Shown one piece after another: positions 21,114 through 51,063 of a stretch of 64,000 nucleotides of DNA. The translations under genes were made by a program, and so were the position numbers. Positions within the stretch are counted from its first letter, which is position 1. Each line of letters opens with the position of its first letter. The stretch lies in assembly GCF_058153355.1 (NCBI RefSeq), contig NZ_CM177019.1. One strand, written 5' to 3'. The notes beneath the pieces are model-generated. The model searched no databases and had not been told where the DNA came from. It worked only from the letters and a program-made list of their open reading frames with translations.

Positions 21114-21200
21114 AACATTCAAGCTGATGACCACCACGCTTTTTATTGACCATTTTGCACGCAAACTGGAAAACCTGGCGTCGTCATCTATTCTTAAAGG

Positions 21201-21304
21201 GCAAGGCAACTAAGCCCTGCATTAATGCCAACTTTTAGCGCACGGCTCTCTCCCAAGAGCCATTTCCCTGGACCGAATACAGGAATCGTATTCGGTCTTT
21301 TTTT
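21201..21304 (+). ncRNA. sdsR: SdsR (RyeB) small RNA
   Basis: gcaaggcaactaagccctgcattaatgccaacttttagcgcacggctctctcccaagagccatttccctggaccgaatacaggaatcgtattcggtcttttttt matches remembered enterobacterial SdsR, including the terminal hairpin and U-run. Location next to yebY is as in K-12. Confidence 0.8.
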
Positions 21305-21338
21305 AATTGCATTTGAAATCAATTGGTTGCAAATGTCT

Positions 21339-21358
21339 CCCCGAAATTCCCCGAAATT
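21339..21358. repeat. tandem direct repeat ccccgaaatt x2 (possible integrase arm-type sites)
   Basis: Exact 10-bp tandem duplication between the sdsR 3' end and int. Confidence 0.4.
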
Positions 21359-21371
21359 TACTCGAATTTCT

Positions 21372-21388
21372 GTATTCCGGTCTTTTTT
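21372..21388. repeat. degenerate second copy of the sdsR 3' terminator / att-core-like repeat
   Basis: gtattccggtctttttt here versus gtattcggtcttttttt at 21288..21304, differing by one indel. Confidence 0.5.
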
Positions 21389-21435
21389 GGTTATATCACA
21401 ACCAAAATACATTTAACAATCCATTTACGTTAAAA

Positions 21436-22512
21436 TCAGAGCAGTAAGTACGTTTTTTCTCTCTCATCAAGATACATTTTTGTTGTCTTCTCCGATGTGT
21501 GGCCAAGTAGACGCTGAGCAAATTCTTCTCCACATGTTTCTTTGTACAATCGTCCAGCCAGGCTTCTGACTTCGTGAAAAGTTGGTGGGTTTTCACTGAA
21601 CTGGATACCTGTTAATTTTCTGGCTGCGACAAATTTCTTTGTCAGGCCGTCCGGGTGAATGCTGCCGTCAGGGCTGTTTTTTCTAATCCCGGCACTGATT
21701 AGATAATCCCCCCTACTTACCATGCGGCACTGTTCAACTACTGCACCAAGTCGTAAACCAGCGACAGGAAGGCTGAGTGACAGGGGGATAGCAATCATCA
21801 TTCCTGTCTTAATTTGCCTGATGTGGAGACGATCATCATAAATATCACTGAACCGCATATTCGTTATGTCTTCGCGACGTTGTCCTGTTACAAGGGCTAA
21901 ATCCATAGCTAATGGGAACCATGCCGGAAGTTGATCTGCTGCCTCCCTGATGCAGTTGTATGTCTTTAGTTTCAGTCGTTCTCTTGTAACTACTATTTTC
22001 GGTGCTCTTGTTGGCGTGACTGGATTTTGAGATATACGTCCTTCAACAATGGCCTCGCGAAACATATCAGACAACACAGAACGCATTGATCCTGCCATTG
22101 TGTTTTTCCCTCCTTCAATCCACAAATCAAGAAACTCGGCAATATGGCGAGTGGTTATTTCTGTCAGTAAAATCTCTCCCAATTTTTCTTTTATTGTCTC
22201 CAGTTGATTTGCCCGAATTTTATAAGTATTTCTGGACACTTTTCTCCTTATAAGAATCGTTTTGTAACGTTCAATCCAGTCTGCCATAGTAAATGAGTCG
22301 AACCCTTTAAGCTTTTCAATTAAGGCAGCAGGAGAGTAGTTTTTGTATATATAATGATTTGCTTCAATTGCCTGCGCTACTGCATCTCTTCTTGAAATTT
22401 TACCTAGTGTAAATTCTTCTTTCGTCAGAGGGTTGCGCCAGTAATATGCTTTGTCTCTCCTTCGATATGTTAAGTTTCTAGGCAAATTGGGATCGTATTT
22501 TTTCCGCTGCAT
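21436..22512 (-). CDS. int: lambda-family tyrosine integrase
   Basis: 358 aa. N-terminal arm-binding-like region ([28 protein letters not shown]). C-terminal catalytic pattern ...[11 protein letters not shown]...[15 protein letters not shown]. Confidence 0.92.
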
Positions 22513-22759
22513 GTTTTAACTTCTCCATTAACGGACTGTCTCTCCCTTGTCGCCCATTAGGCTGATGGTGTGTTATATCGGTATCAACCTTATTTGGGTT
22601 GATATAGAAAGCCTCCGGAACCACCCTGTAACTCCTCCCGTGTAGTTCAGGTGCAGGATAAATGTTTCCATTCCTTGCCCATCGTCTCAGCGTTGATATT
22701 GATGGTGGGTTATCCGGATATCTGAGTTTTCCCCACGTTTTGAGTGTCACAAGATTCAT
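22478..22759 (-). CDS. xis: excisionase-like DNA-binding protein
   Basis: Lambda-Xis-like pattern LVTLKTWGKLRYPDNPPSISTLRRWARNGNIYPAPELHGRSYRV. Overlaps the int start. Start taken at MNLVTL. Confidence 0.7.
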   Translation of the reverse strand: MNLVTLKTWGKLRYPDNPPSISTLRRWARNGNIYPAPELHGRSYRVVPEAFYINPNKVDTDITHHQPNGRQGRDSPLMEKLKHAAEKIRSQFA

Positions 22760-22781
22760 TGCCATACCTCTCACGATATGA

Positions 22782-22810
22782 CCGCCAGTAAATATACAGA
22801 ATACTGGCGG
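22782..22810. other. perfect 9-bp-stem hairpin upstream of xis
   Basis: ccgccagta-aatatacagaa-tactggcgg. Confidence 0.4.
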
Positions 22811-22865
22811 GTGTGGTTGATTTTTAATAATCAGCTATGAAGTTCTAATCTGGATATAATGAAAT

Positions 22866-23054
22866 TCACGAGGACTGAAGTTTCTCGCAATTAAAATTTA
22901 TCAGTTTTACTTTCTGCTCTCTGGAAACGCCTGCTTCTTTTTCCCCTGAGAGCATTTTTTCGCATTCTGATTTCGTTAGTTTTGTCTTTGAGTATCTTGT
23001 CCAGCTGGTAGGAGATCCACCTTCCTTTTCAATAGTGGCTGTAATTTTATACAT
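22866..23054 (-). CDS. hypothetical small protein
   Basis: 62 aa starting at MYKITATIEKEGG with a ggagg SD 5 nt upstream; low GC. Confidence 0.55.
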   Translation of the reverse strand: MYKITATIEKEGGSPTSWTRYSKTKLTKSECEKMLSGEKEAGVSREQKVKLINFNCEKLQSS

Positions 23055-23104
23055 GAACACCTCCATTAATATTTTCAAAAACCGTGTCCAAAATGCACTT
23101 GGTT

Positions 23105-24202
23105 TTACACCGGAATATTCTCATCGTATCCTGCTTGTTGCGTTTCGTTTTGTGTTTGTGGATCCGGGAATGCATATTCAACGCCTTCCAGTTCAATCCA
23201 TAGTGCATTACGACCAGCTTTGATTGTCGGCCAGTCCATACCTTTGATTCTTTCCCATGAGCGGGAGGTGAATGTTTTTTCCAGCAAATCAGCTTTTGCG
23301 CGTTTGGCGTCGTTACTGGTGCCCCCATGGTGCTTGTTGAGCAACTCGATAATTTCATCAAGTGCGATTTCTTTTGCACGCTTTTCTTTTAGCCATGTCG
23401 GTGTACCGTCGTTGGCAAATAATTCACTGTTATCCCGTGAGGTATCGATGCCGAGGTGTTCACCTCCCAGGTTAAGAAACTCGATATGAGGAAGAAAGTT
23501 TTTAAATGTTGGGTTTGAAAATACCTGTCCATCAATACGGGTGGAGCGATCTTTTAGTATTCTGGCGGTGCGCCACACCTGACCGGTTTCTATGTTCATT
23601 TGCTTCTCCATCTGGATCAGGATGGAGGGTTCATAACCGGTTTCTGTTTCTGCTTTCATTTTTATACCGGTTTTTGCCAACTGGCGTTTGCCATCATCAC
23701 CTTCGAAAAAGTCATACTCATATCCTGCACGCCCGCACATAATAATGTGCGCCTGACTGTTAACAAATCGATCGGTAAAGCGTCGCCACTCCTGTTTGAG
23801 CCACGCCCAGTCTGAAAATTCCAGTCCTCGTTTACGGTTTCGGCGTCTGGCATACTCGTCGCATAATCCGGTCCAGAAGTGACTGATGGAGTCGATGATC
23901 ATTACGGAACCGCTGCTTTCCGCTTCATTAATGGCTTCAAGCAGATCAACAAACGAGCGGGTTTTTGCCGTAAATAATTCGATGTTTTCCGCATCAAAGC
24001 GGGGTTTAACCCAGTCAGAGCCTGTTTCTGTGTCCAGAAACATTACCGGGCGGTTACCAGCTTCAATTCCCCGTTGCCGCATAAGCATTACCAGACCAAT
24101 AGCCAGTTCGCTTGCTGTGTAGGTTTTGCCGTCGCCAGCAAACCCCATAATTCCTGCTTTTAGATAGGCCTGTGTGTTTATTGCTCGTTGAAAAAGCGCC
24201 AT
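23105..24202 (-). CDS. phage AAA_24 / Sak4-like RecA-fold ATPase (putative recombination protein)
   Basis: 365 aa. Walker A GFAGDGKTYT, FLDTETGSD, Walker-B-like VMIIDSISHFW. Position in the early-left operon. Confidence 0.6.
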   Translation of the reverse strand: MALFQRAINTQAYLKAGIMGFAGDGKTYTASELAIGLVMLMRQRGIEAGNRPVMFLDTETGSDWVKPRFDAENIELFTAKTRSFVDLLEAINEAESSGSVMIIDSISHFWTGLCDEYARRRNRKRGLEFSDWAWLKQEWRRFTDRFVNSQAHIIMCGRAGYEYDFFEGDDGKRQLAKTGIKMKAETETGYEPSILIQMEKQMNIETGQVWRTARILKDRSTRIDGQVFSNPTFKNFLPHIEFLNLGGEHLGIDTSRDNSELFANDGTPTWLKEKRAKEIALDEIIELLNKHHGGTSNDAKRAKADLLEKTFTSRSWERIKGMDWPTIKAGRNALWIELEGVEYAFPDPQTQNETQQAGYDENIPV

Positions 24203-24207
24203 AGATT

Positions 24208-24468
24208 TTAGTCCTCCAAATCAATATCAACCTGGTGGTGGGCAATGGTTTCAGCCATGTACCGGATGTGTTCTGCCATGCGCTCCTGAAACTCAACATC
24301 ATCATCAAATGCGTGGCTGATTGCCTGTTTATTGGCACCGTGGCGTTGCAAATGGTCGATGCAGAGCGATTCAAACAGGTGCTGAGGCAGACCTTTTTCC
24401 AGGTCGTCCGCCAGTTCCGTTTCTTTTTCTTCACGAACGATCTGCTGGTAGTGACGAGCCCATGCCAT
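24208..24468 (-). CDS. hypothetical acidic protein
   Basis: 86-aa ORF tightly coupled upstream of the ATPase gene. Confidence 0.5.
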
Positions 24469-24622
24469 TTCTTCAATACGATCAAAAATCGGGTAAGGCA
24501 GTATGACTTTCCGTGAGACAGATGCTGGCCAACGTGGGATATTTAACGCGGGTTAACATCGTTGTCAGAGCCGCATGGGTGAGCTGTTGCTACACCCCGG
24601 TATTTCCACCACGGAGGCCAGC

Positions 24623-25750
24623 ATGAACAACAATAACACATTGTACGTCGGGTTAGATGTTCACAAAGAATCGATTACTGTCGCTTATGCTATCAATTCA
24701 GAACCTGTTGAACTGATGGGTAAAATTGGCACATCACCTACTGATATTCAGAATCTTTGTAAACGTCTCAGGTCAAAGTCATCGCAGGTCAGTATCGTTT
24801 ATGAAGCGGGGCCCTGTGGTTATGGACTTTATCGTCGGCTGGTGAAATCCGGTTTTGACTGCATGGTCTGCGCCCCCTCACTTATCCCGAAAAAACCGGG
24901 GGAGCGGGTTAAAACCGATCGCCGTGATGCCATCAGACTTGTGCGTTCACTGCGTGCAGGAGATCTTTCTGCTGTCTACGTACCCGGCATTGAAGATGAG
25001 GCATTCCGGGATTTGGCCCGGGCATGGGCATCTGCCCGCGATGATTTACGGCATGCAAGGCAACGTCTGAAATCGTTTCTTCTGGTTCATGGGGTCCATT
25101 ATGTCGGGCGAGCAGATTGGGGCCCTGCACACCGACGCTGGCTCAGCAAATACTCATTCGAAAGTCCCTGGCGACAATTAGCTTTTGACGAACACCGTCG
25201 TACAATAGAAGACCGGCAGGCACAATGTGAACGGCTGGAATCCGCCCTGAAGGAGGCCGTTACCGAATGGAGGCTGTATCCGGTAGTAGAGGCGCTGCAA
25301 GCCATGCGAGGGATTCAGTTTATTACTGCGGTTGGATTAATTTCTGAACTGGGTGATCTGACCCGTTTTGAACATCCACGACAACTGATGTCATGGTTTG
25401 GTATCACGCCATCAGAATATTCATCGGGTGGAAGCAGACATCAGGGCAGCATTACCAAAGCCGGAAACAGCTATGCCAGAAAGCTATTGGTCGAGGCAGC
25501 GTGGAGTTACCGTCATCCGGCACGCATCAGTCCGGCAATACAAAAAAGGCAGGAAAATTTACCCCGCCCCGTCATTGACAGAGCATGGGATGCTCAACTC
25601 AGGCTTTGTAAGAGGTATCGAAAACTTCAGGCCAAAGGAAAGAATGTCAATATTACAATTGTTGCTGTTGCACGTGAGCTGGCGGGTTTTATCTGGGATA
25701 TGGGCCGAATAGCAATGTCTGTCGCACAACAACCACAATGTCACAAATAA
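24623..25750 (+). CDS. IS110-family (DEDD) transposase
   Basis: 375 aa from MNNNNTLYVGLDVHKESI (ggagg SD at 24613). Has the N-terminal RuvC-like LYVGLDVHK motif and the C-terminal Tnp-domain pattern MRGIQFITAVGLISELGDLTRF...GITPSEYSSGG. Confidence 0.9.
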   Translation: MNNNNTLYVGLDVHKESITVAYAINSEPVELMGKIGTSPTDIQNLCKRLRSKSSQVSIVYEAGPCGYGLYRRLVKSGFDCMVCAPSLIPKKPGERVKTDRRDAIRLVRSLRAGDLSAVYVPGIEDEAFRDLARAWASARDDLRHARQRLKSFLLVHGVHYVGRADWGPAHRRWLSKYSFESPWRQLAFDEHRRTIEDRQAQCERLESALKEAVTEWRLYPVVEALQAMRGIQFITAVGLISELGDLTRFEHPRQLMSWFGITPSEYSSGGSRHQGSITKAGNSYARKLLVEAAWSYRHPARISPAIQKRQENLPRPVIDRAWDAQLRLCKRYRKLQAKGKNVNITIVAVARELAGFIWDMGRIAMSVAQQPQCHK

Positions 25751-28634: not shown

Positions 28635-29189
28635 TTATTTTAAGGAAAGCAACTGCTCTACGGTCATGTTTTTAATTGCGCCCCGGTTTACAAGAGTCCA
28701 GCCCTGTTTTTCCAGATAAAACCGGAAAGTCTCCAGGGTACAGACCAGTGCGCCATCAGGAACAGTTTCGGTGAATCTGATATTGCCGCGTTCGTCGAAG
28801 TGAACTACGAGAGTACGGCCATCTCCCGGAATCATCTTGTCAGCAGGTGGGGTGTTATTCTGGCGCAGTTCGGCCTCCATGCGGTCGAACTCAGCAATGT
28901 AGGCTTCTTTGAATGCAGCGGCTTTTTTGCCAGTGAATCCCATCACCAGGAAAACGAAGCCGTTTTTGGTGATCTGGTACATTGGGCGTTTTTCGCCTTT
29001 GGCGTCAGTGTAGGTGACGTCCTCAAAATTGAGGGCGTTAAATTCAGGTGAGCATTCAGTATTTGCGATGGCACGTAACACATTGTCGTGTCGTTTGTGG
29101 AAGAACTCTGCAACCGCAACAGACGTAGTGACAGCGCGACCGTTTTCTACGGTTACACTAGGGTGAGAAAGGGTAAGGGTAGTAGCCAT
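28635..29189 (-). CDS. Rha-family phage regulatory protein / antirepressor
   Basis: 184 aa from MATTLTLSHPSV (ggagg SD at 29198..29202). Rha-like core RAVTTSVAVAEFFHKRHDNVLRAI...YTDAKGEKRPMYQITKNGFVFLVMGFTG. Confidence 0.7.
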   Translation of the reverse strand: MATTLTLSHPSVTVENGRAVTTSVAVAEFFHKRHDNVLRAIANTECSPEFNALNFEDVTYTDAKGEKRPMYQITKNGFVFLVMGFTGKKAAAFKEAYIAEFDRMEAELRQNNTPPADKMIPGDGRTLVVHFDERGNIRFTETVPDGALVCTLETFRFYLEKQGWTLVNRGAIKNMTVEQLLSLK

Positions 29190-29245
29190 GATGGCAGCCT
29201 CCGCGATGAATTTGATTAACTCACCACCGGAGGTAGCAATCTCAT

Positions 29246-29325
29246 GGGGGGTGAGACGTACAGGGTTGCTACAACCGGTCATCACGGAACCCGGCCAGTC
29301 TTGCGACTGCCCCGCACGCCCCACC
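29246..29325 (-). ncRNA. c4-like antisense RNA, copy B
   Basis: On the minus strand, a 16-bp closing stem whose 4 G-U pairs are valid only on this strand. Inside it are a cagtc-GCAA-gactg hairpin, a ccgg-stem hairpin with loop gttccgtgatga, and a single-stranded tgtagcaa. The architecture is shared with copy A. Confidence 0.6.
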
Positions 29326-29355
29326 ATAATTTGAATGTGGCTGTGCATTACGCAT

Positions 29356-29432
29356 AAAAAAACCGCCTGAGCGCGGTTATGCGCCGTGAATGACTTCGGG
29401 GTAGCAATCCCAGCACCCGTTTTATGAGGTGC
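29356..29432 (-). ncRNA. short leader RNA carrying c4-target-like sites (module B)
   Basis: Lies downstream of the promoter at 29439..29467. Has the hairpin gcacct-cataaaac-gggtgc, sites ttgctac and tcattcacgg, and the terminator aaccgc-gctcag-gcggtt plus a U-run. Confidence 0.45.
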
Positions 29433-29438
29433 AGATGC

Positions 29439-29467
29439 ACTATAATTCCACCCGTTCTGGTTTTCAA
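29439..29467 (-). promoter_or_regulatory. sigma70-type promoter of antirepressor module B
   Basis: TTGAAA - 17 nt - TATAGT on the minus strand. Confidence 0.5.
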
Positions 29468-29650
29468 TAGCTACATTCAACATTTTCTCTTACCTTTCAT
29501 CACCGAAGTGAACTTTGTCGATGCGGTGCCTGGTGCCTCCAGGTGACGTTAACCAGTTAACAATTAACGCCGGAATAAGGGATTTTCCTTACTGTTTTAA
29601 CTGTTCCGCGTGCGCATAGCCGCATTCACCGCATCACAAAATTCACTTTA

Positions 29651-29700
29651 AAAAGAGCGGCAGAGCAAAACTGATGCCGCCAAAAGTTTCATCGCCAACA
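29651..29700 (-). ncRNA. dicF: DicF-like small RNA (shortened variant)
   Basis: The minus strand reads ...cttttggcggcatcagttttgctctgccgctcttttt. It shares TTTGGCGGyATCAGTTTT and the GCTCTGCCGC-U-run 3' end with remembered K-12 DicF but lacks about 11 internal nt. It lies downstream of ydfABC-like genes, as in the Qin prophage. Confidence 0.5.
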
Positions 29701-31226: not shown

Positions 31227-31733
31227 TTATTCTGAAGGTGGGTTGCTTGCGTACTTCTCGTAGAAGTCGTAAAGCTGCTTGAGTCGCATTTCGAAAGCCA
31301 AAAGCATGTTTTTGGCCTCAACTGGAGGAAACTGTCGAAAAGTATTAATCAGGCGTTTTTCATCTTCGCTTAACTCAGTAAATTCATCTGCGCTACTGCC
31401 GATAGATTTTTGCACCCCTAACAAACCTGCAGGGGAAGCAGGAGTCTTCTCTGTTGATGAACCATATTCCAGCCACGCAGGCTCAACACCTAGAAGTTCT
31501 GCTATTCGTTCAAGTTTTTCGTCGCGTGGTTTAGCAGTACCTAACGTATAGCGCCGCGCCATTTCGTAAGTAACACCCGAAGACAAACTTAAGTCTTTGA
31601 TAGATATTTTTTTCCTATCCATTTCAGACTTTAGTCTTGTCGCGAATGCGTGATGTTTATGTGTGTTTTCTACCATGTATAGAAGATTAAAGTAGTTGTC
31701 CTGTTTCGTCATTTCTATTTTACGTAGTTGCAA
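31227..31733 (-). CDS. XRE-family (CI/RacR-like) prophage repressor, no S24 peptidase domain evident
   Basis: 168-aa ORF. HTH segment KKISIKDLSLSSGVTYEMARRYTLGTAKPRDEKLERIAELLGVEPAWL. Divergent from the cro-like gene. Start codon uncertain (M1, M8 or M20). Confidence 0.7.
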   Translation of the reverse strand: MQLRKIEMTKQDNYFNLLYMVENTHKHHAFATRLKSEMDRKKISIKDLSLSSGVTYEMARRYTLGTAKPRDEKLERIAELLGVEPAWLEYGSSTEKTPASPAGLLGVQKSIGSSADEFTELSEDEKRLINTFRQFPPVEAKNMLLAFEMRLKQLYDFYEKYASNPPSE

Positions 31734-31770: not shown

Positions 31771-32067
31771 ATGGAGTTAACGATGAGTACGACACACAAA
31801 AACATCACAGAAAAGGCGGTTATGGCCATTGGCTCTCCATCTGCTGTAAGCCGCATGTTTGGTTTCAGATCGCCTCAATCCATTTTTAACTGGATTATTC
31901 GAAATAGAGTACCAAGCGAAAGGGTTATTAGGCTTTGTGAATTGGGAGGGTGGGTTGTTACTCCTCATGATCTTCGTCCTGATTTACATCCTACTCCAAT
32001 TAGTGGAATTCCTGAGGATGTTATCAAATCTAAAAAAATAGGGTTGATTCATGAAAATCAGGCATGA
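31771..32067 (+). CDS. Cro-like YdaS-family HTH protein
   Basis: 98 aa. Pattern ...SPSAVSRMFGFRSPQSIFNWI..RVPSERVIRLCELGGWVVTPHDLRPDL typical of the YdaS/Cro family. Confidence 0.7.
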   Translation: MELTMSTTHKNITEKAVMAIGSPSAVSRMFGFRSPQSIFNWIIRNRVPSERVIRLCELGGWVVTPHDLRPDLHPTPISGIPEDVIKSKKIGLIHENQA

Positions 32068-33319: not shown

Positions 33320-34712
33320 CACCTTTCCGGTGCCATACCGGGTCGATGCCGAACAGGCAGTGCTGGGGTGCCTGATGGTAAACACCGACACTGAGCGTGC
33401 GGGGCTGGTGTATTCGATGCTGAAACCGGAGTCGTTTTACGTTGCGGCGCACAGGGTTATTTTCCGTGAAATTCGCGGACTTTTCCGTGCCGGAAAGCCT
33501 ACGGACCTGCTCAGCCTTGCGAACGTGATCGAGGCGAAAAAACTGGATGCTGAGACTGGTGGCTTTGCGTACCTTGCTGAAATCAGCAGGAGTGCCACGC
33601 TATCGGCGATGGTTCACTACGCCGGGATTGTGCGGGAAAAATCCATCCTGCGGTACGCGGTGGAAAAATTACATGCGTGCATCGGGATCATGAATCAGCC
33701 GACAGACACGAGTGCGACAGAACGACTTGGCGCAGTTCAACAGGTCATTGGCACGGTGGCAGAGTATGCCAGAACAGGAAAAACAGGCGGTCTGCGCCCG
33801 GTAAGTGATGTGGTTAACGACTGGATTGATGATCTTGAGCGTCGCTTTTCCAGCCCGGAGAACGCAGCGGGTCTGACGCTGGGGATTAGCTCTCTGGATC
33901 GGCTTATGGCCCCCAAACATGTGCTACGTGGTTCGCTGGTAGTGATTGGTGCAAGGCCGAAAATGGGTAAAAGCGCCTCGCTGAACAGGATTGTGACGCA
34001 TTTTGCTCTGAATCATCGTCTGCCCACACTGGTATTCACCCTGGAAATGACAGATCGCAGCCTGGTTGAGCGCATGGTTGCGCAGGAGGCGAGGGTAAAT
34101 TCTGAAATTTTTTATGTCGGTGCCAGTGATGACTCGGATATGGCGCGGGCGATGGCGAAAGCCGCAGAACTGGCAGAATCAAACCTGATGATTGACAGCA
34201 CACCAGGGGTAACGTTGTCCCATGTGATCGCTGAATGCCGGAAGGTTAAGCGTCAGCGTGGTGTCGTCGGCCTTGTGGCGATCGATTACCTGACGCTGAT
34301 GAAGGCGGAAGCCGCTGAGCGTCGTGATATTGCTTTCGGGGATATCACAACGGGCTTAAAAAATCTCGCTAAAGAGCTGGACTGCGTGGTTTTACTTCTG
34401 ACGTAACTTAACCGAAAACTCGAGGACAGGGCAGATAAACGCCCCACACCAAGCGACAGTCGCGACACCGGGCAGATTGAACAGGATTGCGATGTGTGGA
34501 TTGGGTTGTACCGGGATGCTGTCTACAACCAGAACGCAGACTCTCAGCTTATGGAGCTGATTCTCCGTCTGAACAGGGAGGGAGCAACAGGAACAGCATA
34601 CGCCCTGATGGATAACGGTTCAGTGACTGATGTCAGCGCAGAGGATGCTGCCAGACGTCTGAGACTTGGTGGTCCGGCACGTAAACCCTACGCACAGACG
34701 GAGGATTTCTGA
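33309..34712 (+). pseudogene. DnaB-like replicative helicase with a single in-frame TAA
   Basis: N-terminal DnaB motif VDAEQAVLGCLM; Walker A GARPKMGKSA. A TAA stop at 34404..34406 sits where DnaB motif ..LSQLNR.. has Gln (VVLLLT*LNRKLEDRADKRPTPSDSRDTGQIEQDCD). The same frame continues to 34712. Confidence 0.8.
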
Positions 34713-37384: not shown

Positions 37385-37414
37385 TTGACGACAACGTTAA
37401 TCCGGGGCTATATT
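37385..37414 (+). promoter_or_regulatory. sigma70-type promoter of antirepressor module A
   Basis: TTGACG - 17/18 nt - cTATATT. Confidence 0.5.
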
Positions 37415-37419
37415 CCTCA

Positions 37420-37497
37420 CGCGCCAGCAAAATCTGGCGTCGGGATTAGCACCCCGGATGTTTACGGAGCGATATGAGACGCGCCCGCGTCTTTTTT
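37420..37497 (+). ncRNA. short leader RNA carrying c4-target-like sites (module A)
   Basis: Hairpin cgccag-caaaat-ctggcg, sites ttagcac (37446..37452) and tacgga (37463..37468), terminator agacgcg-cc-cgcgtct plus a U-run. Collinear with the module B leader. Confidence 0.45.
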
Positions 37498-37530
37498 CAT
37501 ATCGTTTGCATAGTCACATTCGCGATTTAT

Positions 37531-37606
37531 GGCGGGCTGTGTGGGGGAGCCGAAAGGCTCGCCGGTTTCCGTACCCGGTAGTGCTAACCCCGCACAGTTC
37601 GCCACC
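37531..37606 (+). ncRNA. c4-like antisense RNA, copy A
   Basis: 76 nt. A 16-bp closing stem pairs 37531..37546 with 37588..37603. Inside are a gagcc-GAAA-ggctc hairpin, a ccgg-stem hairpin with loop tttccgtac, and a single-stranded agtgctaa. Confidence 0.6.
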
Positions 37607-37628
37607 CGATGATTGGAACATGAATGTA

Positions 37629-37657
37629 TTGACAGTTTCATGTTAGCAGATTACATT
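37629..37657 (+). promoter_or_regulatory. second promoter inside module A
   Basis: TTGACA - 17 nt - TACATT, followed about 60 nt later by a weak hairpin plus a T9 run (37694..37724). Confidence 0.45.
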
Positions 37658-37867
37658 CCTCGACGGTGCTCAAAACACCTTTCAGTAGCGGTTACCGCGC
37701 CCGACAGACATGCGGTTTTTTTTTGTGTCCAGAATTCTTGGTTTATGACTGGGCGTGCGGCTAATACAATACCAGCAATGGGAATACGCCCGCCGACTAC
37801 TGACGGTTTTGAGCGCCCGGTCACCCTCTCAAAAGGGGTAAATCAAAATATTCAGTAGGACATATTC

Positions 37868-38468: not shown

Positions 38469-38698
38469 AGAACATTACCACCGAGGATAAAATGATTTGC
38501 GGTGAAAGGGAAGTCAAGTAGAATTGCTGCGGGTGCTTGAGGCTATCTGTCTCAGGCATGAACACCAAAAGGCAGATAGAGAAGCCCCAGTTAACATTAC
38601 GCGTCCTGCAAGACGCTTAACATTAATCTGAGGCCCAATCTATGTCTCACAAATGTAGGTTAGCCTCTTACGTGCCGGAAGGCAAGGAGAAGCAGGCT

Positions 38699-38854
38699 AT
38701 GAAGCAGCAAAAGGCGATGTTAGTCGCCCTGATCGTCATCTGTTTAACCGTCATAGTGACGGCACTGGTAACGAGGAAAGACCTCTGTGAGGTACGAATC
38801 CGAACCGGCCAGACGGAGGTCGCTGTCTTCGTAGACTACGAATCCAGGAAGTAA
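38699..38854 (+). CDS. hok: Hok/Gef-family type I toxin (HokD/RelF-like)
   Basis: 51 aa, MKQQKAMLVALIVICLTVIVTALVTRKDLCEVRIRTGQTEVAVFVDYESRK. Nearly identical over its first 44 residues (two substitutions) to remembered HokD; the last 7 residues diverge. aaggaga SD at 38684..38690. Confidence 0.85.
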   Translation: MKQQKAMLVALIVICLTVIVTALVTRKDLCEVRIRTGQTEVAVFVDYESRK

Positions 38855-39076
38855 GAGTGACCAGGCGGGAGAGTAATCTCCCGCCACCTCTGATGTGTCA
38901 GGCATCCTCAACGCACCCGCACTTAACCCGCTTCGGCGGGTTTTTTGTTGCGATTTTCAACGCGTTTGAACTTTCAGAATGCGCAGGAATAGAATCAAAA
39001 ACACTTAAGTAGCGCGCAGGGAGAAGAGGGATGGACCCCTTAAGGGGAAGTGTTAAAAGTTCACGGGCTTTTTGTT

Positions 39077-39244
39077 ATGAACGTTAAAGAATTGATTGTT
39101 GTGCTTTCTTTACCAGGTCACTACGAAGTGATAACGCTCGAAAATGGGGAGTTTATCGTAACGCCATTACCTCCTGATGCAATTCTAATCAGCAAAGAAT
39201 CGCACGCAGATTCTGTAAGCCACTTCTGTATTAAAGAAGACTAA
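39077..39244 (+). CDS. hypothetical small protein
   Basis: ORF MNVKELIVVLSLPGHYEVITLENGEFIVTPLPP...; no good SD, start uncertain. Confidence 0.3.
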   Translation: MNVKELIVVLSLPGHYEVITLENGEFIVTPLPPDAILISKESHADSVSHFCIKED

Positions 39245-39304
39245 ATTATACTGGCAACGCCAGTCTGAACACCTGGTACCTGTCGCACCATTACGAGGGT
39301 AGTA

Positions 39305-39904
39305 GTGGTGCATTTACAGTTAGTCAAACAAACTTCTTCTGGTTTACTTCTCCCGGCGACGCCGGAGAGTTGCGATTTTCTGCATCAAATCAAAACAGGT
39401 GAGTGGATACACGCAGACTTTAAGCGTGTGCGTAACTACGCATTTCACAAGCGTTTTTTCAAACTCCTGCAACTGGGGTTCGATTACTGGACTCCGGTCG
39501 GAGGGGCGATCACGCCTAGCGAACAAAAACTGGTTTCAGGATTCGTTGATTACCTGTGCGAATCAGTTGGTCGGGAACACACACCAGCCCTGAGTGATGC
39601 CGCAGAGCAATATCTGAATACGGTTGCGACACGCAGAACCCGGGATACGGCATTGCTAAAGTCGTTTGAGGCTTTTCGCGAGTGGGTAACCATTCAGGCC
39701 GGATTTTACACCGAACATTTTTATCCGGACGGTAGCCGTGGGTGTCGGGCGAAATCTATCGCGTTTGCGAATATGGACGAAACCGAGTTTCAGCAGGTTT
39801 ATAAATCTGTACTGAATGTGCTGTGGAACTGGATTCTGTTCCGTAAATTTTCCTCTCCGGAACAAGTCGAAAATGTGGCCGCGCAGCTGCTGGAGTTTGC
39901 GTAA
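39305..39904 (+). CDS. DUF1367-family phage protein
   Basis: 199 aa, GTG start; typical Nin-region position upstream of Q. Confidence 0.55.
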   Translation: MVHLQLVKQTSSGLLLPATPESCDFLHQIKTGEWIHADFKRVRNYAFHKRFFKLLQLGFDYWTPVGGAITPSEQKLVSGFVDYLCESVGREHTPALSDAAEQYLNTVATRRTRDTALLKSFEAFREWVTIQAGFYTEHFYPDGSRGCRAKSIAFANMDETEFQQVYKSVLNVLWNWILFRKFSSPEQVENVAAQLLEFA

Positions 39905-40194
39905 TGGTGGATTTACGTAAAGCGGCGCGGGGGCAGATGTGCACCGTCAGAATTCCTGGCTACTGCAATCACGATCCGGAAACGTCTGTGCTGGCGCATT
40001 ACCGACTGGCGGGAACGTGCGGAACAGCGATAAAGCCACACGATATGCAGGCAGCGATTGCCTGTAGCTCGTGCCACGATTTAATCGACGGGCGGGTAAA
40101 AACCAGCGATTACACCAAAGAAGAATTACGCCTGATGCATGCAGAAGGTGTTTTTCGCACACAAGAAATCTGGAGAAAGGAGGGATATTTATGA
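39904..40194 (+). CDS. DUF1364-family Cys-rich protein
   Basis: 96 aa, C..C...C..CH pattern (CTVRIPGYC ... CSSCHDLIDG), ATG overlaps the preceding stop. Confidence 0.55.
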   Translation: MVDLRKAARGQMCTVRIPGYCNHDPETSVLAHYRLAGTCGTAIKPHDMQAAIACSSCHDLIDGRVKTSDYTKEELRLMHAEGVFRTQEIWRKEGYL

Positions 40195-40745
40195 TTTACC
40201 CAACGAATACAGGAAAAAGCGGAGAACACCTTCGTCTCACCACGCTGGAAAGTGTCTGGATTCAGGGAAAACTACGTATGTGGGGGCGCTGGTCGTATAT
40301 TGGTGGCGGTAAGACGGGGAATATGTTTAACCTGATGTTGACCTCTAAAAAGCTGACAAAAACGGCAATTAACGAGGCGCTCCGGAGGATGAAAAAAGCA
40401 GGTCTGAACAAGTCTGAACTTGAGGCTTTTTTGCGGGATATGATTAACGGTAAGCAAAAGAGCTGGCTGGCGCATTGTACTGATGCAGAGGCGTTATGTA
40501 TTGATCGGGTCATAAGTGAGGTGCTGGCAGAGCATCCAGGATTGATTAGCGTCCTTCGGCAACGGTATGAGGGGCGGGGGATGACCAAACGCAAAATGGC
40601 TGAACTGCTGAATGATGCACACCCGAAATGGAGTTTAAGAACCTGTGAAAGACGCATTGAGCATTGGCTAAAGGTGGCAGAATTTATTTTGTACAAACCA
40701 ATGGTTATGGCTTTTGGTATAGAGAAAAAAGTTATTGCTTTTTGA
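40191..40745 (+). CDS. late-gene antiterminator Q-like protein
   Basis: 184 aa from MIYPTNTGKSG (ATGA overlap with the previous gene). Positioned directly upstream of a terminated short leader, the tRNAs and the lysis genes. Confidence 0.6.
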   Translation: MIYPTNTGKSGEHLRLTTLESVWIQGKLRMWGRWSYIGGGKTGNMFNLMLTSKKLTKTAINEALRRMKKAGLNKSELEAFLRDMINGKQKSWLAHCTDAEALCIDRVISEVLAEHPGLISVLRQRYEGRGMTKRKMAELLNDAHPKWSLRTCERRIEHWLKVAEFILYKPMVMAFGIEKKVIAF

Positions 40746-40823
40746 CGTAAAAACTGCTTCAATTCTTGTACGCTTCGCAAAGCTGTACCGCGAGGCGAAT
40801 AGCAGACATGGACATTTGAAAGA

Positions 40824-40847
40824 GCCCGCTTTATGCGGGTTTTTTTA
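40824..40847 (+). terminator. tR'-like terminator downstream of Q
   Basis: cccgc-tttat-gcggg followed by ttttttt. Confidence 0.7.
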
Positions 40848-40934
40848 TACCTGAAAAACGGCACAGGACGTTAAACGTGCTGGTGGTCAGATGAGTTTGC
40901 AGATGTGATGACATATGGTTATTATTCTGCCTCC

Positions 40935-41011
40935 GGCCCTTTAGCTCAGTTGGTCAGAGCGAGCGACTCATAATCGCCAGGTCGCTGGTTCAAGTCCAGC
41001 AAGGGCCACCA
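40935..41011 (+). tRNA. tRNA, anticodon CAU (Ile2/ileX-like; Met not excluded)
   Basis: Cloverleaf ggcccttt agctcagttggtcagagc ... ctCATaa ... ggttcaagtcc ... gggccacca; close to remembered ileX. Confidence 0.85.
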
Positions 41012-41012
41012 A

Positions 41013-41089
41013 CCACCACTAGCTCATCCGGATAGAGCATCAACCTTCTAAGTTGACGGTGCGAGGTTCGAGTCCTCGGTGGTGGGCCA
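41013..41089 (+). tRNA. tRNA-Arg (UCU)
   Basis: Acceptor ccaccac/gtggtgg, anticodon loop ctTCTaa, T-arm cgaggttcgagtcctcg, encoded CCA. Confidence 0.8.
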
Positions 41090-41091
41090 GC

Positions 41092-41167
<76 letters not shown>

Positions 41168-41170
41168 TAT

Positions 41171-41245
<75 letters not shown>

Positions 41246-49491: not shown

Positions 49492-51063
49492 ATGGACACC
49501 TCACTTGCTCATGAGAATGCCCGCCTGCGGGCACTGTTGCAGACGCAACAGGACACCATCCGCCAGATGGCGAAATACAACCGCCTGCTCTCACAGCGGG
49601 TGGCGGCTTATGCTTCCGAAATCAACCGGCTGAAGGCGCTGGTTGCAAAACTGCAGCGCATGCAGTTCGGTAAAAGCTCAGAAAAACTTCGTGCAAAAAC
49701 CGAACGGCAGATACAGGAAGCACAGGAGCGAATCAGCGCTCTTCAGGAAGAAATGGCGGAAACGCTGGGTGAGCAATATGACCCGGTACTGCCATCTCCC
49801 CTGCGCCAGTCTTCAGCCCGTAAACCGTTACCTGCCTCACTTCCCCGTGAAACCCGGGTCATCCGTCCGGAAGAGGAATGCTGCCCGGCCTGTGGTGGCG
49901 AACTCAGTTCTCTGGGATGTGATGTGTCAGAGCAACTGGAGCTTATCAGCAGCGCCTTTAAGGTTATCGAAACACAACGTCCGAAACTGGCCTGTTGCCG
50001 GTGCGACCATATCGTGCAGGCTCCGGTGCCTTCAAAACCCATTGCACGCAGTTATGCCGGAGCGGGGCTTCTGGCCCATGTTGTCGCTGGAAAATATGCA
50101 GACCATCTGCCGTTATACCGCCAGTCAGAAATATACCGTCGTCAGGGCGTGGAGCTGAGCCGTGCCACACTGGGGCGCTGGACAGGTGCTGTTGCTGAAC
50201 TGCTGGAACCGCTGTATGACATCCTGCGCCAGTATGTGCTGATGCCCGGTAAAGTCCATGCCGATGATATCCCCGTTCCGGTCCAGGAGCCGGGCAGCGG
50301 TAAAACAAGGACTGCCCGGCTGTGGGTCTACGTTCGTGATGACCGTAACGCCGGTTCGGAAATGCCTCCGGCGGTCTGGTTCGCGTACAGCCCGGACCGG
50401 AAAGGTATCCATCCACAGAATCATCTGGCCGGTTACAGCGGAGTGCTTCAGGCCGATGCTTACGGTGGTTACCGGGCGTTGTACGAATCCGGCAGAATAA
50501 CGGAAGCCGCATGTATGGCTCATGCCCGGAGAAAAATCCACGATGTGCATGCAAGAGTGCCCACCGACATCACCACGGAAGCCCTGCAGCGTATCGGTGA
50601 ACTGTATGCCATCGAGGCAGAGGTCCGGGGCTGTTCAGCAGAACAGCGTCTGGCGGCAAGAAAAGCCAGAGCCGCGCCACTGATGCAGTCACTGTATGAC
50701 TGGATACAGCAACAGATGAAAACACTGTCGCGTCACTCGGACACGGCAAAAGCGTTCGCATACCTGCTGAAACAGTGGGATGCACTGAACGTGTACTGCA
50801 GTAATGGCTGGGTGGAAATCGACAACAACATCGCAGAGAACGCCTTACGGGGAGTGGCCGTAGGCCGGAAAAACTGGCTCTTCGCGGGTTCTGACAGCGG
50901 TGGTGAACATGCTGCGGTGTTGTACTCGCTGATCGGCACATGCCGTCTGAACAATGTGGAGCCAGAAAAGTGGCTGCGTTACGTCATTGAACATATCCAG
51001 GACTGGCCGGCAAACCGGGTACGCGATCTGTTGCCCTGGAAAGTTGATCTGAGCTCTCAGTAA
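49492..51063 (+). CDS. IS66-family transposase (orfC)
   Basis: 523 aa; N-terminal leucine-zipper-like region, CPACGG zinc motif, DDE-type core. Confidence 0.9.

What the first reader, a model, noticed from the sequence alone, without database searches (positions are those of the whole stretch)
29190..29470. Antirepressor module B: c4-like antisense RNA whose two single-stranded segments match sites both upstream and over the rha ribosome-binding site
Read on the minus strand, the order is as follows. First, a TTGAAA-17-TATAGT promoter. Second, a roughly 77-nt terminated leader containing ttgctac and tcattcacgg. Third, a roughly 78-nt three-way-junction RNA with single-stranged gtagcaa and loop ccgtgatga. 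Fourth, a second ttgctac (complement of 29233..29239) and tcatcgcgg (complement of 29201..29209), the latter abutting the ggagg SD of the Rha-family gene. The antisense segments are complementary to both site pairs. The closing stem contains four G-U pairs that are only valid on this strand. This is the logic described for the phage P1/P7 immI region, where c4 RNA loops a' and b' pair with sites a1/b1 and a2/b2 to occlude the RBS upstream of ant. Here it sits in a lambdoid-type prophage whose repressor shows no autocleavage domain. That makes an RNA-gated antirepressor a likely induction switch.
Basis: partly seen in the sequence, partly recalled or inferred. Interest (0 to 1): 0.6.

Follow-up and report, generated by a model that had tools for sequence, protein, structure and literature searches.

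The report
P1-type c4 antisense switch guarding rha
This is a genuine but ordinary member of a well-known phage regulatory device, in which a small structured RNA (c4) pairs with the ribosome-binding site of a downstream regulator gene and a short upstream RNA (IsrK type) carries decoy copies of the same sites.

Summary
On the minus strand lie a sigma-70 promoter (TTGAAA-17-TATAGT), a 77-nt terminated leader, a three-way-junction RNA of about 79 nt, and second copies of both target sites next to the rha start. Rfam's curated models score the leader as IsrK (60.2 bits, cut-off 50) and the junction RNA as C4 (72.8 bits, cut-off 45).

Across 37 distinct relatives there are 9 variants of the a' segment and 14 of the b' loop. 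Each variant matches its own upstream and downstream sites: 0 of 100,000 permutations did as well, for each of the four loop-target sets.

Site spacing is almost the same as in phage P1 immI and in Salmonella Gifsy-1 isrK. The published Gifsy-1 compensatory mutations fall on two of the seven a1:a' pairs.

The stretch evolves as RNA, not protein. RefSeq's 843-nt "Rha" CDS in the closest relative reads through both RNAs and looks over-extended.

Additions to the finding: a conserved anti-Shine-Dalgarno hairpin, and a repressor related to the Gifsy-1 repressor.

Not shown: RNA processing, repression itself, and whether Rha is an antirepressor. Verdict: a real feature and a new member of a known kind, of low to moderate interest.

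The parts
29439..29467 (-). Sigma-70-type promoter, -35 TTGAAA, 17-nt spacer, -10 TATAGT. The transcript probably starts near 29432.
   Evidence: 10 of 12 consensus positions. Relatives keep a -35/17 nt/-10 arrangement at the same position even where the surrounding sequence is unrelated: TTGACG-17-TATATT in L021 and L023, and TTGACG-17-TATAGT in L090.
29356..29432 (-). IsrK-type terminated leader RNA of about 77 nt. It has a 5' hairpin, a second hairpin that presents a1 in its loop, an unpaired b1, and an intrinsic terminator.
   Evidence: Rfam RF01394 isrK, 60.2 bits against gathering 50. Fold. Helices are 99-100% paired in 34 relatives but hardly vary.
29401..29407 (-). a1 site, UUGCUAC, the exact complement of a'.
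   Evidence: In the a1:a' helix, all 7 pairs are 100% paired across 34 sequences and 5 pairs change on both sides.
29384..29393 (-). b1 site, UCAUUCACGG. It pairs with b' over 9 bp with one bulged U.
   Evidence: -12.8 kcal/mol. In the b1:b' helix, 7 of 9 pairs change on both sides and 91.5% of cells are paired.
29354..29378 (-). Intrinsic terminator of the leader: a G+C-rich stem followed by U7.
   Evidence: Invariant in relatives.
29244..29331 (-). C4 antisense RNA. The mature form is predicted at about 29325..29247 (79 nt) by analogy with the annotated P1 c4 ends. It has a 16-bp closing stem with four G.U pairs, a hairpin with a GCAA loop, and a hairpin carrying b'.
   Evidence: Rfam RF01695, 72.8 bits against gathering 45. 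Fold -43.1 kcal/mol. G.U pairs listed. Pair counts. P1 ends.
29279..29287 (-). b' loop, CCGUGAUGA, within the 12-nt loop 29290..29279.
   Evidence: There are 14 variants among relatives, and each fits its own b1 and b2 best.
29266..29272 (-). a' junction segment, GUAGCAA, unpaired.
   Evidence: There are 9 variants among relatives, and each fits its own a1 and a2 best.
29233..29239 (-). a2 site, UUGCUAC, 7 nt after the predicted 3' end of C4.
29201..29209 (-). b2 site, UCAUCGCGG. The duplex with b' runs on into GGAG of the Shine-Dalgarno.
   Evidence: 11 bp, -16.5 kcal/mol; 2 of 2000 shuffles as good.
29198..29233 (-). Local anti-SD hairpin. CCUCCG (29233..29228) pairs with CGGAGG (29203..29198), and GGUGAGUU pairs with the 5' half of b2.
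   Evidence: The SD is fully paired in 16 of 25 unique spacers and partly paired in the rest. Mean z is -2.9.
29198..29202 (-). Shine-Dalgarno GGAGG of rha, 8 nt before the ATG at 29189.
   Evidence: Read directly from the sequence. GAGG is invariant in 34 relatives.
28635..29189 (-). rha gene, 184 aa. It has a Rha N-terminal domain and a C-terminal domain that weakly matches 'anti-repressor' PHROGs.
   Evidence: Pfam PF09669 at 110 bits. TIGR02681 at 119 bits. PHROGs. Codon-phase bias begins at this ATG.

Best explanation
Module B is a P1 immI-type RNA switch placed in the early-left operon of a lambdoid E. coli prophage.

Proposed sequence of events:
1. A constitutive promoter makes mostly a 77-nt terminated leader of IsrK type. 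It displays a1 in a hairpin loop and b1 in an unpaired stretch.
2. Transcripts that read through the terminator contain the C4 RNA.
3. C4 is cut out as a stable RNA of about 79 nt. In P1 this is done by RNase P; that is my own knowledge of the literature, not tested here.
4. C4's unpaired a' and b' segments pair with a2 and b2 on the rha mRNA. The b':b2 duplex covers GGAG of the Shine-Dalgarno, so 30S subunits cannot bind and Rha is not made.
5. A local anti-SD hairpin adds a second lock on the same ribosome-binding site.
6. The leader's a1/b1 sites compete for C4. When the leader is in excess, C4 is titrated away and rha can be translated.
7. Rha then acts on prophage regulation, possibly as an antirepressor of the Gifsy-type repressor, which has no cleavage domain.

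Shown here: the anatomy, family membership, selection on all four pairings, and the RNA (not coding) nature of the stretch.
Shown in homologues by others: c4 represses (P1), and excess IsrK activates translation and induces the prophage (Gifsy-1).
Inferred: processing, the decoy role at this locus, and what Rha does.
For: - Rfam hits above the curated cut-offs.
- Strand-specific fold with four G.U pairs in the closing stem.
- Own-versus-foreign duplex test. Own a' gives -8.3 and -8.2 kcal/mol against leader and spacer; foreign gives -6.0 and -5.2. Own b' gives -12.7 and -14.3; foreign gives -8.1 and -7.8. 0 of 100,000 permutations reach the observed sum in any of the four sets.
- Tool-based pair count: 98% of cells paired, against about 40% when the partners are slid by 1-3 columns. 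12 of the 16 intermolecular pairs change on both sides.
- Site spacing for P1 / Gifsy-1 / module B: a1 to b1 is 7/9/7 nt, a2 to b2 is 22/23/23 nt, and b2 to ATG is 10/12/11 nt. The P1 sites are those annotated in the P1 record.
- Gifsy-1 experiments (PMC4825925). IsrK supplied in trans raises anrP translation more than 100-fold. The compensatory pairs G28A/C162U and G31A/C159U map exactly onto a1:a'.
- The a1/b1 competitor idea dates from Citron & Schuster 1990, as summarised in PMC2864571 Additional file 1.
- No codon-phase bias across C4 (2279/2091/1842 pairwise differences by phase), against 5886/5340/14498 in rha.
- The repressor is related to the Gifsy-1 repressor.
Against: - Nothing here shows that the RNAs exist, are processed, or repress.
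- The predicted lowest-energy fold of the whole read-through transcript pairs a1/b1 with a'/b' in cis instead of forming the free C4 domain. The order of events is therefore uncertain.
- The anti-SD hairpin alone could keep rha silent, so C4 may be only one of two locks.
- A frame that starts at the AUG inside C4 is open and in phase with rha in 34 of 37 modules. The plain c4 model does not explain this.
- b1 pairs imperfectly.
- Rha is not homologous to P1 Ant or to Gifsy-1 AnrP.
- No LexA-box-like site is near the promoter, so any link to induction is indirect.
Confidence: 0.75

Rival explanations
1. The Gifsy-1 published model applies instead of, or on top of, c4 antisense control. In that model the read-through RNA is locked in an inactive cis structure, with the leader paired to the C4 region. 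Free leader RNA opens it. Ribosomes then start at the AUG inside the C4 closing stem (29327..29325), translate through the spacer, melt the anti-SD hairpin, and deliver translation to rha. Here that would be by reading straight into rha, because the frame is in phase.
For: - PMC4825925 shows that orf45 is translated and is needed for anrP expression.
- orf45 starts at the same AUGGUGGGG motif.
- The full transcript of module B folds with a1:a' and b1:b' paired in cis.
- The frame from that AUG is open and in phase with rha in 34 of 37 modules.
- A strong anti-SD hairpin would need to be opened.
Against: - This model gives no role to a2 or b2, yet both co-vary with a' and b' (0 of 100,000 permutations).
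- There is no Shine-Dalgarno before AUG 29327 (read directly from the sequence).
- There is no codon-phase bias.
- The frame is broken in L051, L090 and L093 and closes after 14 codons in P1 (read directly from the sequence).
- In Gifsy-1 the ORF ends in an ATGA overlap rather than an in-frame fusion, so the arrangement is not conserved.
Confidence: 0.3
2. The stretch is protein-coding, an N-terminal extension of Rha. The closest RefSeq relative is annotated this way (843-nt CDS). In the window the equivalent frame is the 282-aa ORF 28635..29483.
For: - The frame is open for 98 codons upstream of ATG 29189.
- RefSeq annotates it this way.
- The phrog_995 profile extends about 100 residues further upstream.
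Against: - No third-position bias upstream of ATG 29189, against a strong bias downstream of it.
- Two Rfam RNA families, an intrinsic terminator and a promoter all lie inside the supposed CDS.
- Variation is compensatory at the RNA level.
- The Rha domain starts at residue 21 of the short protein.
- GGAGG lies 8 nt before ATG 29189.
Confidence: 0.03
3. C4 acts mainly on transcription, by premature termination or Rho-dependent polarity, as described for P4 CI with seqA/seqC and as a consequence of translational block in P1. On this view direct occlusion of the ribosome-binding site is not the main effect.
For: - PMC4825925 draws the P4 analogy, and reports an 8-fold rise in a transcriptional fusion when IsrK is supplied.
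- Rho-dependent polarity after the translational block is known for P1. This is my own knowledge and was not checked here.
Against: - No terminator-like site lies between C4 and rha.
- b2 sits on the SD in every relative.
- In Gifsy-1 the translational effect (139-fold) far exceeds the transcriptional one (8-fold).
Confidence: 0.15
4. The complementarities are chance matches around an unrelated structured RNA.
For: Taken singly, three of the four matches in this one sequence are only weakly unusual.
Against: - All four together: 0 of 5000 shuffles.
- Three-site covariation across 9 a' variants and 14 b' variants.
- Same geometry as the annotated P1 sites.
Confidence: 0.01

Closest known systems
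Phage P1/P7 immI region: c4 RNA with a1/b1 and a2/b2 sites, followed by icd and ant
   Same: - Same RNA family: P1 c4 scores 68.8 bits and module B scores 72.8 bits on RF01695.
- Identical 5' start, AUUAUGGUGGGGCGUG.
- a' lies in the junction and b' in a hairpin loop.
- Two copies of each target, with b2 on GAGG of the downstream gene's ribosome-binding site.
- Spacings agree within 1-2 nt.
- A promoter of the same type (TTGACC-17-TATAGT) and a terminator-like leader.
   Different: - The regulated gene is a Rha-family protein directly. There is no icd-like upstream ORF and no Ant1/Ant2 homologue.
- The host element is an integrated lambdoid prophage, not a plasmid prophage.
- No C1-type operator is seen at the promoter.
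- There is an extra anti-SD hairpin.
- The leader here passes the IsrK model, while P1's passes only the c4-a1b1 model.
Salmonella Gifsy-1 isrK-orf45(STnc1160)-anrP-isrJ locus (PMC4825925)
   Same: - IsrK and C4 hits in the same order and at the same spacing.
- a1, a', a2 and b1, b', b2 are all present, and b2 abuts GGAGG.
- The repressor is of the same non-cleavable type.
- Experimental proof of a1:a' pairing, of activation by free leader RNA, and of prophage induction by the downstream protein.
   Different: - AnrP is an ORF6N protein, 53% identical to the gene behind module A and not significantly similar to Rha.
- The Gifsy-1 module sits after the Q gene in the nin region, whereas module B sits in the early-left operon.
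- orf45 ends in an ATGA overlap, whereas here the frame is fused to rha.
- The published model does not invoke a2/b2 and does not identify the RNA as c4.
Rfam c4-a1b1 motif (RF03163) from Weinberg et al. 2010
   Same: Two hairpins, with a1 in the second one and b1 just 3' of it. That is the layout seen here.
   Different: Module B does not reach that model's gathering score, whereas module A, P1, Gifsy-1 and L093 do. It is recognised by the overlapping IsrK model instead.
sRNA-Xcc1 (RF02221) elements in the same prophages
   Same: - Same position and logic. One loop is complementary to a site in a terminated leader and to a site abutting the Shine-Dalgarno of an ant or rha gene. This holds for the window copy at 37747..37830 and for L019.
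- In L019 it replaces C4 upstream of a Rha relative.
   Different: - It is a different Rfam family and is not placed in the C4 clan.
- Only one complementary segment was found, not two.
- L090's copy shows no such pair.

Membership tests
C4 antisense RNA (Rfam RF01695; prototype P1/P7 c4) | Covariance-model score at or above the curated gathering score | tested here: met
   72.8 bits against 45, full-length match 1-87 of 87, at 29244..29331 on the minus strand.
C4 antisense RNA (Rfam RF01695; prototype P1/P7 c4) | Three-way junction: a long closing stem, a hairpin with a stable tetraloop, and a hairpin with the b' loop | tested here: met
   - Lowest-energy and centroid folds are identical, at -43.1 kcal/mol.
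- The tetraloop is GCAA, which is GNRA type.
- Helices are 99-100% paired in 34 relatives.
- Two pairs of the tetraloop hairpin change on both sides, and 8 pairs of the closing stem change on one side. The closing stem is therefore compatible with the structure but only weakly tested.
C4 antisense RNA (Rfam RF01695; prototype P1/P7 c4) | Unpaired a' and b' are complementary to a2/b2 between the RNA and the next gene, with b2 on the ribosome-binding site | tested here: met
   b2 abuts or overlaps GAGG in all 34 enterobacterial relatives.
C4 antisense RNA (Rfam RF01695; prototype P1/P7 c4) | A second set of sites, a1/b1, lies upstream of the RNA | tested here: met
C4 antisense RNA (Rfam RF01695; prototype P1/P7 c4) | Excised from a longer transcript to about 77 nt (by RNase P in P1) | not testable with these tools
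   Only compatible features are seen. The stem begins right after AU, as at the annotated P1 5' end. The stem is followed by NCC: ACC in most relatives and CCC here.
C4 antisense RNA (Rfam RF01695; prototype P1/P7 c4) | Represses synthesis of the downstream protein | not testable with these tools
   Inferred from P1 and Gifsy-1. No expression data are available.
P1 immI module (c4-icd-ant) | The downstream genes are icd and ant homologues | tested here: not met
   The downstream gene is a Rha-family protein (PF09669) and has no icd-like ORF before it. This does not affect membership of the RNA family, but module B is not an immI orthologue as a whole.
IsrK (Rfam RF01394) | Covariance-model score at or above gathering, ending in an intrinsic terminator | tested here: met
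   60.2 bits against 50, match 1-77 of 77. Terminator.
IsrK (Rfam RF01394) | Hfq binding, and activation of the downstream mRNA in trans | not testable with these tools
   Known only for Gifsy-1 (PMC4825925).
c4-a1b1 motif (Rfam RF03163) | Covariance-model score at or above gathering | tested here: not met
   No gathering-level hit at module B, although module A, P1, Gifsy-1 and L093 have one. The same region is covered by the IsrK hit.
Rha family regulatory protein (PF09669 / TIGR02681) | N-terminal Rha domain above the curated cut-offs | tested here: met
   110.1 bits against 29.9, and 119 bits against 45.95.
Phage antirepressor (functional class) | Binds and inactivates the prophage repressor | not testable with these tools
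   Only name-level hints. Weaker PHROG matches are to families annotated 'anti-repressor'. There is no significant similarity to AnrP.
Gifsy-type repressor without a self-cleavage domain | HTH repressor lacking an S24 peptidase domain and related to the Gifsy-1 repressor | tested here: met
   Pfam finds only HTH_3 and HTH_26. It is 25% identical over 134 residues to the Gifsy-1 repressor, E 8e-11, including the C-terminal part. There is a weak match to DicA below the cut-off.

The most novel reading that the evidence does not exclude
Module B, together with Gifsy-1 isrK, may be a two-layer switch in which the same ~79 nt serve two roles. Folded and excised, they are the c4 antisense RNA that blocks the rha ribosome-binding site. 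Unfolded, when leader RNA is in excess, they are the start of a translated but non-coding leader frame. Ribosomes on that frame would destroy the antisense RNA in cis and melt the anti-SD hairpin, giving an all-or-none decision.

Alongside this, the a and b segments may form a combinatorial address code (at least 9 a' and 14 b' variants, freely reassorted). Such a code would keep the switches of co-resident prophages private. sRNA-Xcc1 may be a second RNA family built on the same plan.
Probability: 0.2. Interest if true: 0.5.

Novelty: new member of a known kind. Interest (0 to 1): 0.27.

Why it matters
For the field it is routine. The c4 and c4-a1b1 motifs have been catalogued since 2010 with hundreds of members (PMC2864571). 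The 1.1-kb stretch that holds this module and rha has matches in 4629 of 5426 complete E. coli genomes.

Three practical points follow.

1. Public annotation in the closest RefSeq relative, and the phrog_995 profile, swallow both RNAs into an over-long Rha CDS. That hides a regulatory element and gives a wrong protein start.
2. Mapping the Gifsy-1 mutations onto a1:a' links two literatures, P1 c4 and Salmonella IsrK. In the papers I could search they are not connected. The mapping also suggests that the a2/b2 sites deserve testing in Gifsy-1.
3. The natural set of reassorted a and b variants is a ready-made panel of orthogonal RNA pairs. It could be used to test specificity between co-resident prophages, including Stx phages, which carry related modules.

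Tried and rejected
- **Column-locked covariation for a':a2 and b':b2.** Rejected because MAFFT puts a 3-nt indel at a2, and the WIN-type b2 is 2 nt out of register. Replaced by an alignment-free duplex-energy test of own against foreign targets.
- **Fold-based delimitation of a'.** It mis-set one a-type and clipped some spacers. Replaced by fixed structural anchors.
- **Coding hypothesis for the stretch.** Rejected on codon-phase statistics, with rha as the positive control.
- **SOS control.** No LexA-box-like site (CTGT-N8-ACAG, up to 1 mismatch) lies near the promoter.
- **Other targets of C4-B in the window.** The composite a2-b2 pattern occurs only once.
- **Cognate a2 for C4-A.** None found downstream of it, and the number of TTAGCAC sites in the window is at chance level.
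- **Homology of Rha to module A's Ant or to AnrP.** Not significant, so the Gifsy-1 protein precedent cannot simply be transferred.
- **Failed look-ups.** Two paper searches and one supplement search failed on term format, and one accession call failed on range. All were repeated correctly, except that one search was replaced by reading the supplement directly.
- **Dinucleotide shuffle.** The routine I sketched was not used. Those shuffles are mononucleotide shuffles.
Full report
**What is there**

Read on the minus strand, the interval holds the following, in order.
- A sigma-70-type promoter, TTGAAA-17-TATAGT, at 29467..29439. It is one of two promoter-like sites in 900 bases, and the only one on this strand.
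- A leader that ends in the only intrinsic-terminator-like site of the region: stem 29378..29361 followed by U7.
- A three-way-junction RNA.
- A 60-nt spacer.
- The start of a Rha-family gene: GGAGG at 29202..29198 and ATG at 29189.

Rfam's curated models, run on the whole window at gathering thresholds, call the leader IsrK (29356..29432, 60.2 bits, cut-off 50). They call the junction RNA C4 antisense RNA (29244..29331, 72.8 bits, cut-off 45). A second IsrK/c4-a1b1/C4 set lies at 37408..37609 on the plus strand; this is module A.

**Checking the details of the observation**

- The junction RNA folds at -43.1 kcal/mol (z -3.05), and the lowest-energy and centroid structures are identical. The opposite strand reaches only -32.3 kcal/mol (z -1.17).
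- The 16-bp closing stem holds exactly four G.U pairs, which would be C-A mismatches on the other strand.
- The junction segment GUAGCAA (29272..29266) and the loop CCGUGAUGA (29287..29279) are unpaired in the fold.
- TTGCTAC occurs at 29407..29401 (a1) and at 29239..29233 (a2).
- The loop pairs with b2 (29209..29201) over 9 bp with one U.G. The duplex continues into GGAG of the Shine-Dalgarno, giving 11 bp and -16.5 kcal/mol.
- The loop pairs with b1 (29393..29384) over 9 bp with one bulged U, at -12.8 kcal/mol.
- Taken singly, the four matches are matched or beaten by 168, 109, 76 and 2 of 2000 shuffled targets. All four together are matched in 0 of 5000 shuffles.
- The composite a2-N(15-30)-b2 pattern is unique in the window, against 0.00 expected.

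The only qualification is that b1 is an imperfect match.

**Comparative evidence**

Ninety-seven loci that encode relatives of the Rha protein were fetched. Most carry the module at the same distance from the start codon. This gave 37 distinct modules, including one each from Pseudomonas, Arsenophonus and an uncultured bacterium.

Among them a' takes 9 forms and the b' loop takes 14, in many combinations. In each locus the upstream site, the RNA segment and the downstream site change together.

In an alignment-free test, each variant's own leader and own spacer gave much better duplexes than those of other variants:

| Loop and target | Own (kcal/mol) | Foreign (kcal/mol) |
|---|---|---|
| a' with leader | -8.3 | -6.0 |
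| a' with spacer | -8.2 | -5.2 |
| b' with leader | -12.7 | -8.1 |
| b' with spacer | -14.3 | -7.8 |

None of 100,000 permutations of the target assignment reached the observed sum in any of the four sets.

On the 34-sequence alignment A1:
- The a1:a' helix is paired in 100% of cells, and 5 of its 7 pairs change on both sides.
- The b1:b' helix is paired in 91.5% of cells, and 7 of its 9 pairs change on both sides. The unpaired cells are the bulged type found in this window.
- Sliding the partners by 1-3 columns drops pairing to about 40%.

The internal helices of C4 and of the leader are 99-100% paired but vary little, so these close relatives only weakly test them.

Caveat: most loci are E. 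coli or Shigella prophages that share ancestry. The counts of variants, not of sequences, are the meaningful numbers.

**Comparison with the prototypes**

The P1 record annotates a1, b1, c4 (77 nt), a2, b2, icd and ant. P1 c4 scores 68.8 bits on the same model and starts with the same AUUAUGGUGGGGCGUG.

| Spacing (nt) | P1 | Gifsy-1 | Module B |
|---|---|---|---|
| a1 to b1 | 7 | 9 | 7 |
| a2 to b2 | 22 | 23 | 23 |
| b2 to ATG | 10 | 12 | 11 |

(All.)

In Gifsy-1, Rfam finds IsrK at 34316..34240 and C4 at 34214..34131 (69 bits). That is exactly where PMC4825925 places 'orf45' and the stable processed RNA STnc1160.

Numbering from the IsrK start reproduces every nucleotide named in that paper. 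Its compensatory pairs G28A/C162U and G31A/C159U are two of the seven a1:a' pairs. orf45 starts at the AUG in the 5' strand of the C4 closing stem.

That paper shows three things:
- Free IsrK raises anrP translation more than 100-fold.
- This activation depends on G28 and G31.
- AnrP expression induces the prophage.

It compares the system with P4 CI/seqA and does not mention c4. The idea that a1/b1 compete with a2/b2 for c4 goes back to Citron & Schuster 1990, as summarised in Additional file 1 of PMC2864571. That file also records 593 c4 and 87 c4-a1b1 representatives.

**Is the stretch coding?**

RefSeq annotates the closest relative's Rha gene as an 843-nt CDS that begins upstream of the promoter and reads through both RNAs. 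The best PHROG profile likewise extends about 100 residues further upstream.

The frame that starts at the AUG inside C4 is open and in phase with rha in 34 of 37 modules. However, pairwise differences across C4 are spread 2279/2091/1842 over codon phases 1/2/3. In the first 105 codons of rha from the same loci they are 5886/5340/14498.

So the stretch evolves as RNA, and the long CDS is an over-extension. Why the frame stays open is unexplained. It fits the Gifsy-1 idea that ribosomes can enter at that AUG, and I keep that as a rival or additional layer.

**Additional anatomy**

- The spacer folds into a hairpin in which CCUCCG (29233..29228), immediately 3' of a2, pairs with CGGAGG. GGUGAGUU pairs with the 5' half of b2.
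- The Shine-Dalgarno is fully paired in 16 of 25 unique spacers and partly paired in the others (mean z -2.9). The invariant GGUGGUGAG tolerates the different b2 types through G.U pairs.
- The predicted fold of the whole read-through transcript pairs a1/b1 with a'/b' in cis. This matches 'structure A' of PMC4825925.
- The ribosome-binding site therefore appears to be guarded twice. The order of folding, processing and pairing cannot be settled by computation.

**Context**

- The host flank is E. coli at 99.5% identity.
- The element is a lambdoid prophage beside ryeA/sdsR. In order it carries: lambda-type integrase, RalA/RalR region, an IS110 insertion, RecE, YdaE, rha, module B, an HTH repressor, YdaS- and YdaT-like proteins, a DnaB-type helicase, module A with an ORF6N gene, hok/sok, a Q-like antiterminator, four tRNAs and a lysozyme.
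- The repressor has only an HTH domain. It aligns over its length with the Gifsy-1 repressor (E 8e-11). According to PMC4825925, Gifsy repressors are inactivated by antirepressors.
- The experimentally studied AnrP is 53% identical to the ORF6N protein behind module A. It is not significantly similar to Rha.
- No LexA-box-like site lies near module B's promoter.
- That Rha is an antirepressor, or that module B is an induction switch, therefore remains an inference.

**Verdict**

The finding is real and was read correctly. It is a new member of a known kind: P1-type c4 control, in its IsrK/C4 form common in enterobacterial lambdoid prophages. Interest is low to moderate. The value added here is:
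- the three-site covariation across many specificity types;
- the link between the Gifsy-1 and P1 literatures;
- the anti-SD hairpin;
- the annotation error.

Noticed in passing
window 28635..29483 (-); L001 4224..5066: RefSeq annotates the Rha gene of the closest relative as an 843-nt CDS that starts upstream of the promoter and reads through IsrK and C4. The phrog_995 profile carries the same ~100-residue extension. Codon-phase statistics say the true start is ATG 29189.
   Followed up: yes
window 29189..29327 (-), and the same stretch in L002-L087: The frame that starts at the AUG inside the C4 closing stem is open and in phase with rha in 34 of 37 modules, yet it shows no coding signature. 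In Gifsy-1 the same AUG starts the translated 'orf45'. This is unexplained.
   Followed up: partly
L100 (Gifsy-1) 34131..34316 (-): Gifsy-1 'orf45'/STnc1160 is a C4 antisense RNA (69 bits). The published compensatory mutations G28A/C162U and G31A/C159U are a1:a' pairs. a2 and b2 sites, with b2 abutting GGAGG of anrP, are present but play no part in the published model.
   Followed up: yes
window 37747..37830 (+); L019 1367..1456: sRNA-Xcc1 elements follow c4-like logic. A loop (CUACUGA in the window, CUUAACUG in L019) is complementary to a site in an upstream terminated leader and to a site abutting the Shine-Dalgarno of the next gene (ORF6N ant or a rha relative). In L019 the element takes the place of C4. 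Rfam does not place this family in the C4 clan. L090's copy shows no such pair.
   Followed up: partly
window 37525..37650 (+): C4 of module A (a' GUGCUAA) has a cognate a1 at 37446 but no cognate a2 downstream. The site in the a2 position reads AUUGGAAC, an a-type that belongs to another specificity (as in L084). It is followed by a second promoter-like site, a leader and the Xcc1 element. This looks like a recombinant or orphaned unit.
   Followed up: partly
window 29279..29290 (-) versus 37421..37497 (+): The b' loop of C4-B is predicted to pair fairly well with the leader of module A (-13.6 kcal/mol) because both b types share UUCCGU. The a segments are clearly different (-3.6 kcal/mol). 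Cross-talk between the two modules is therefore not fully excluded.
   Followed up: no
window about 29650..29681 (-): A G+C-rich inverted repeat followed by a T-run (GGCGGCA...TGCCGC TCTTTTT) lies upstream of module B's promoter. It may terminate the preceding early-left genes, which would make module B its own transcription unit. The terminator scan did not list it, probably because its loop is 12 nt.
   Followed up: no
window 21163..25750 and 38531..41242: The prophage integrase (21436..22512, -) lies directly next to the ryeA/sdsR sRNA pair. The prophage also carries RalA/RalR, hok/sok, four tRNA genes after the Q-like gene, an IS110-family insertion (24575..25750) and an IS66-family insertion (49492..51063).
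   Followed up: no
window 31227..31733 (-): The repressor ORF as listed starts at a TTG. An ATG eight codons downstream (about 31712) is a more likely start, and would leave a longer divergent control region before the YdaS-like gene at 31771.
   Followed up: no
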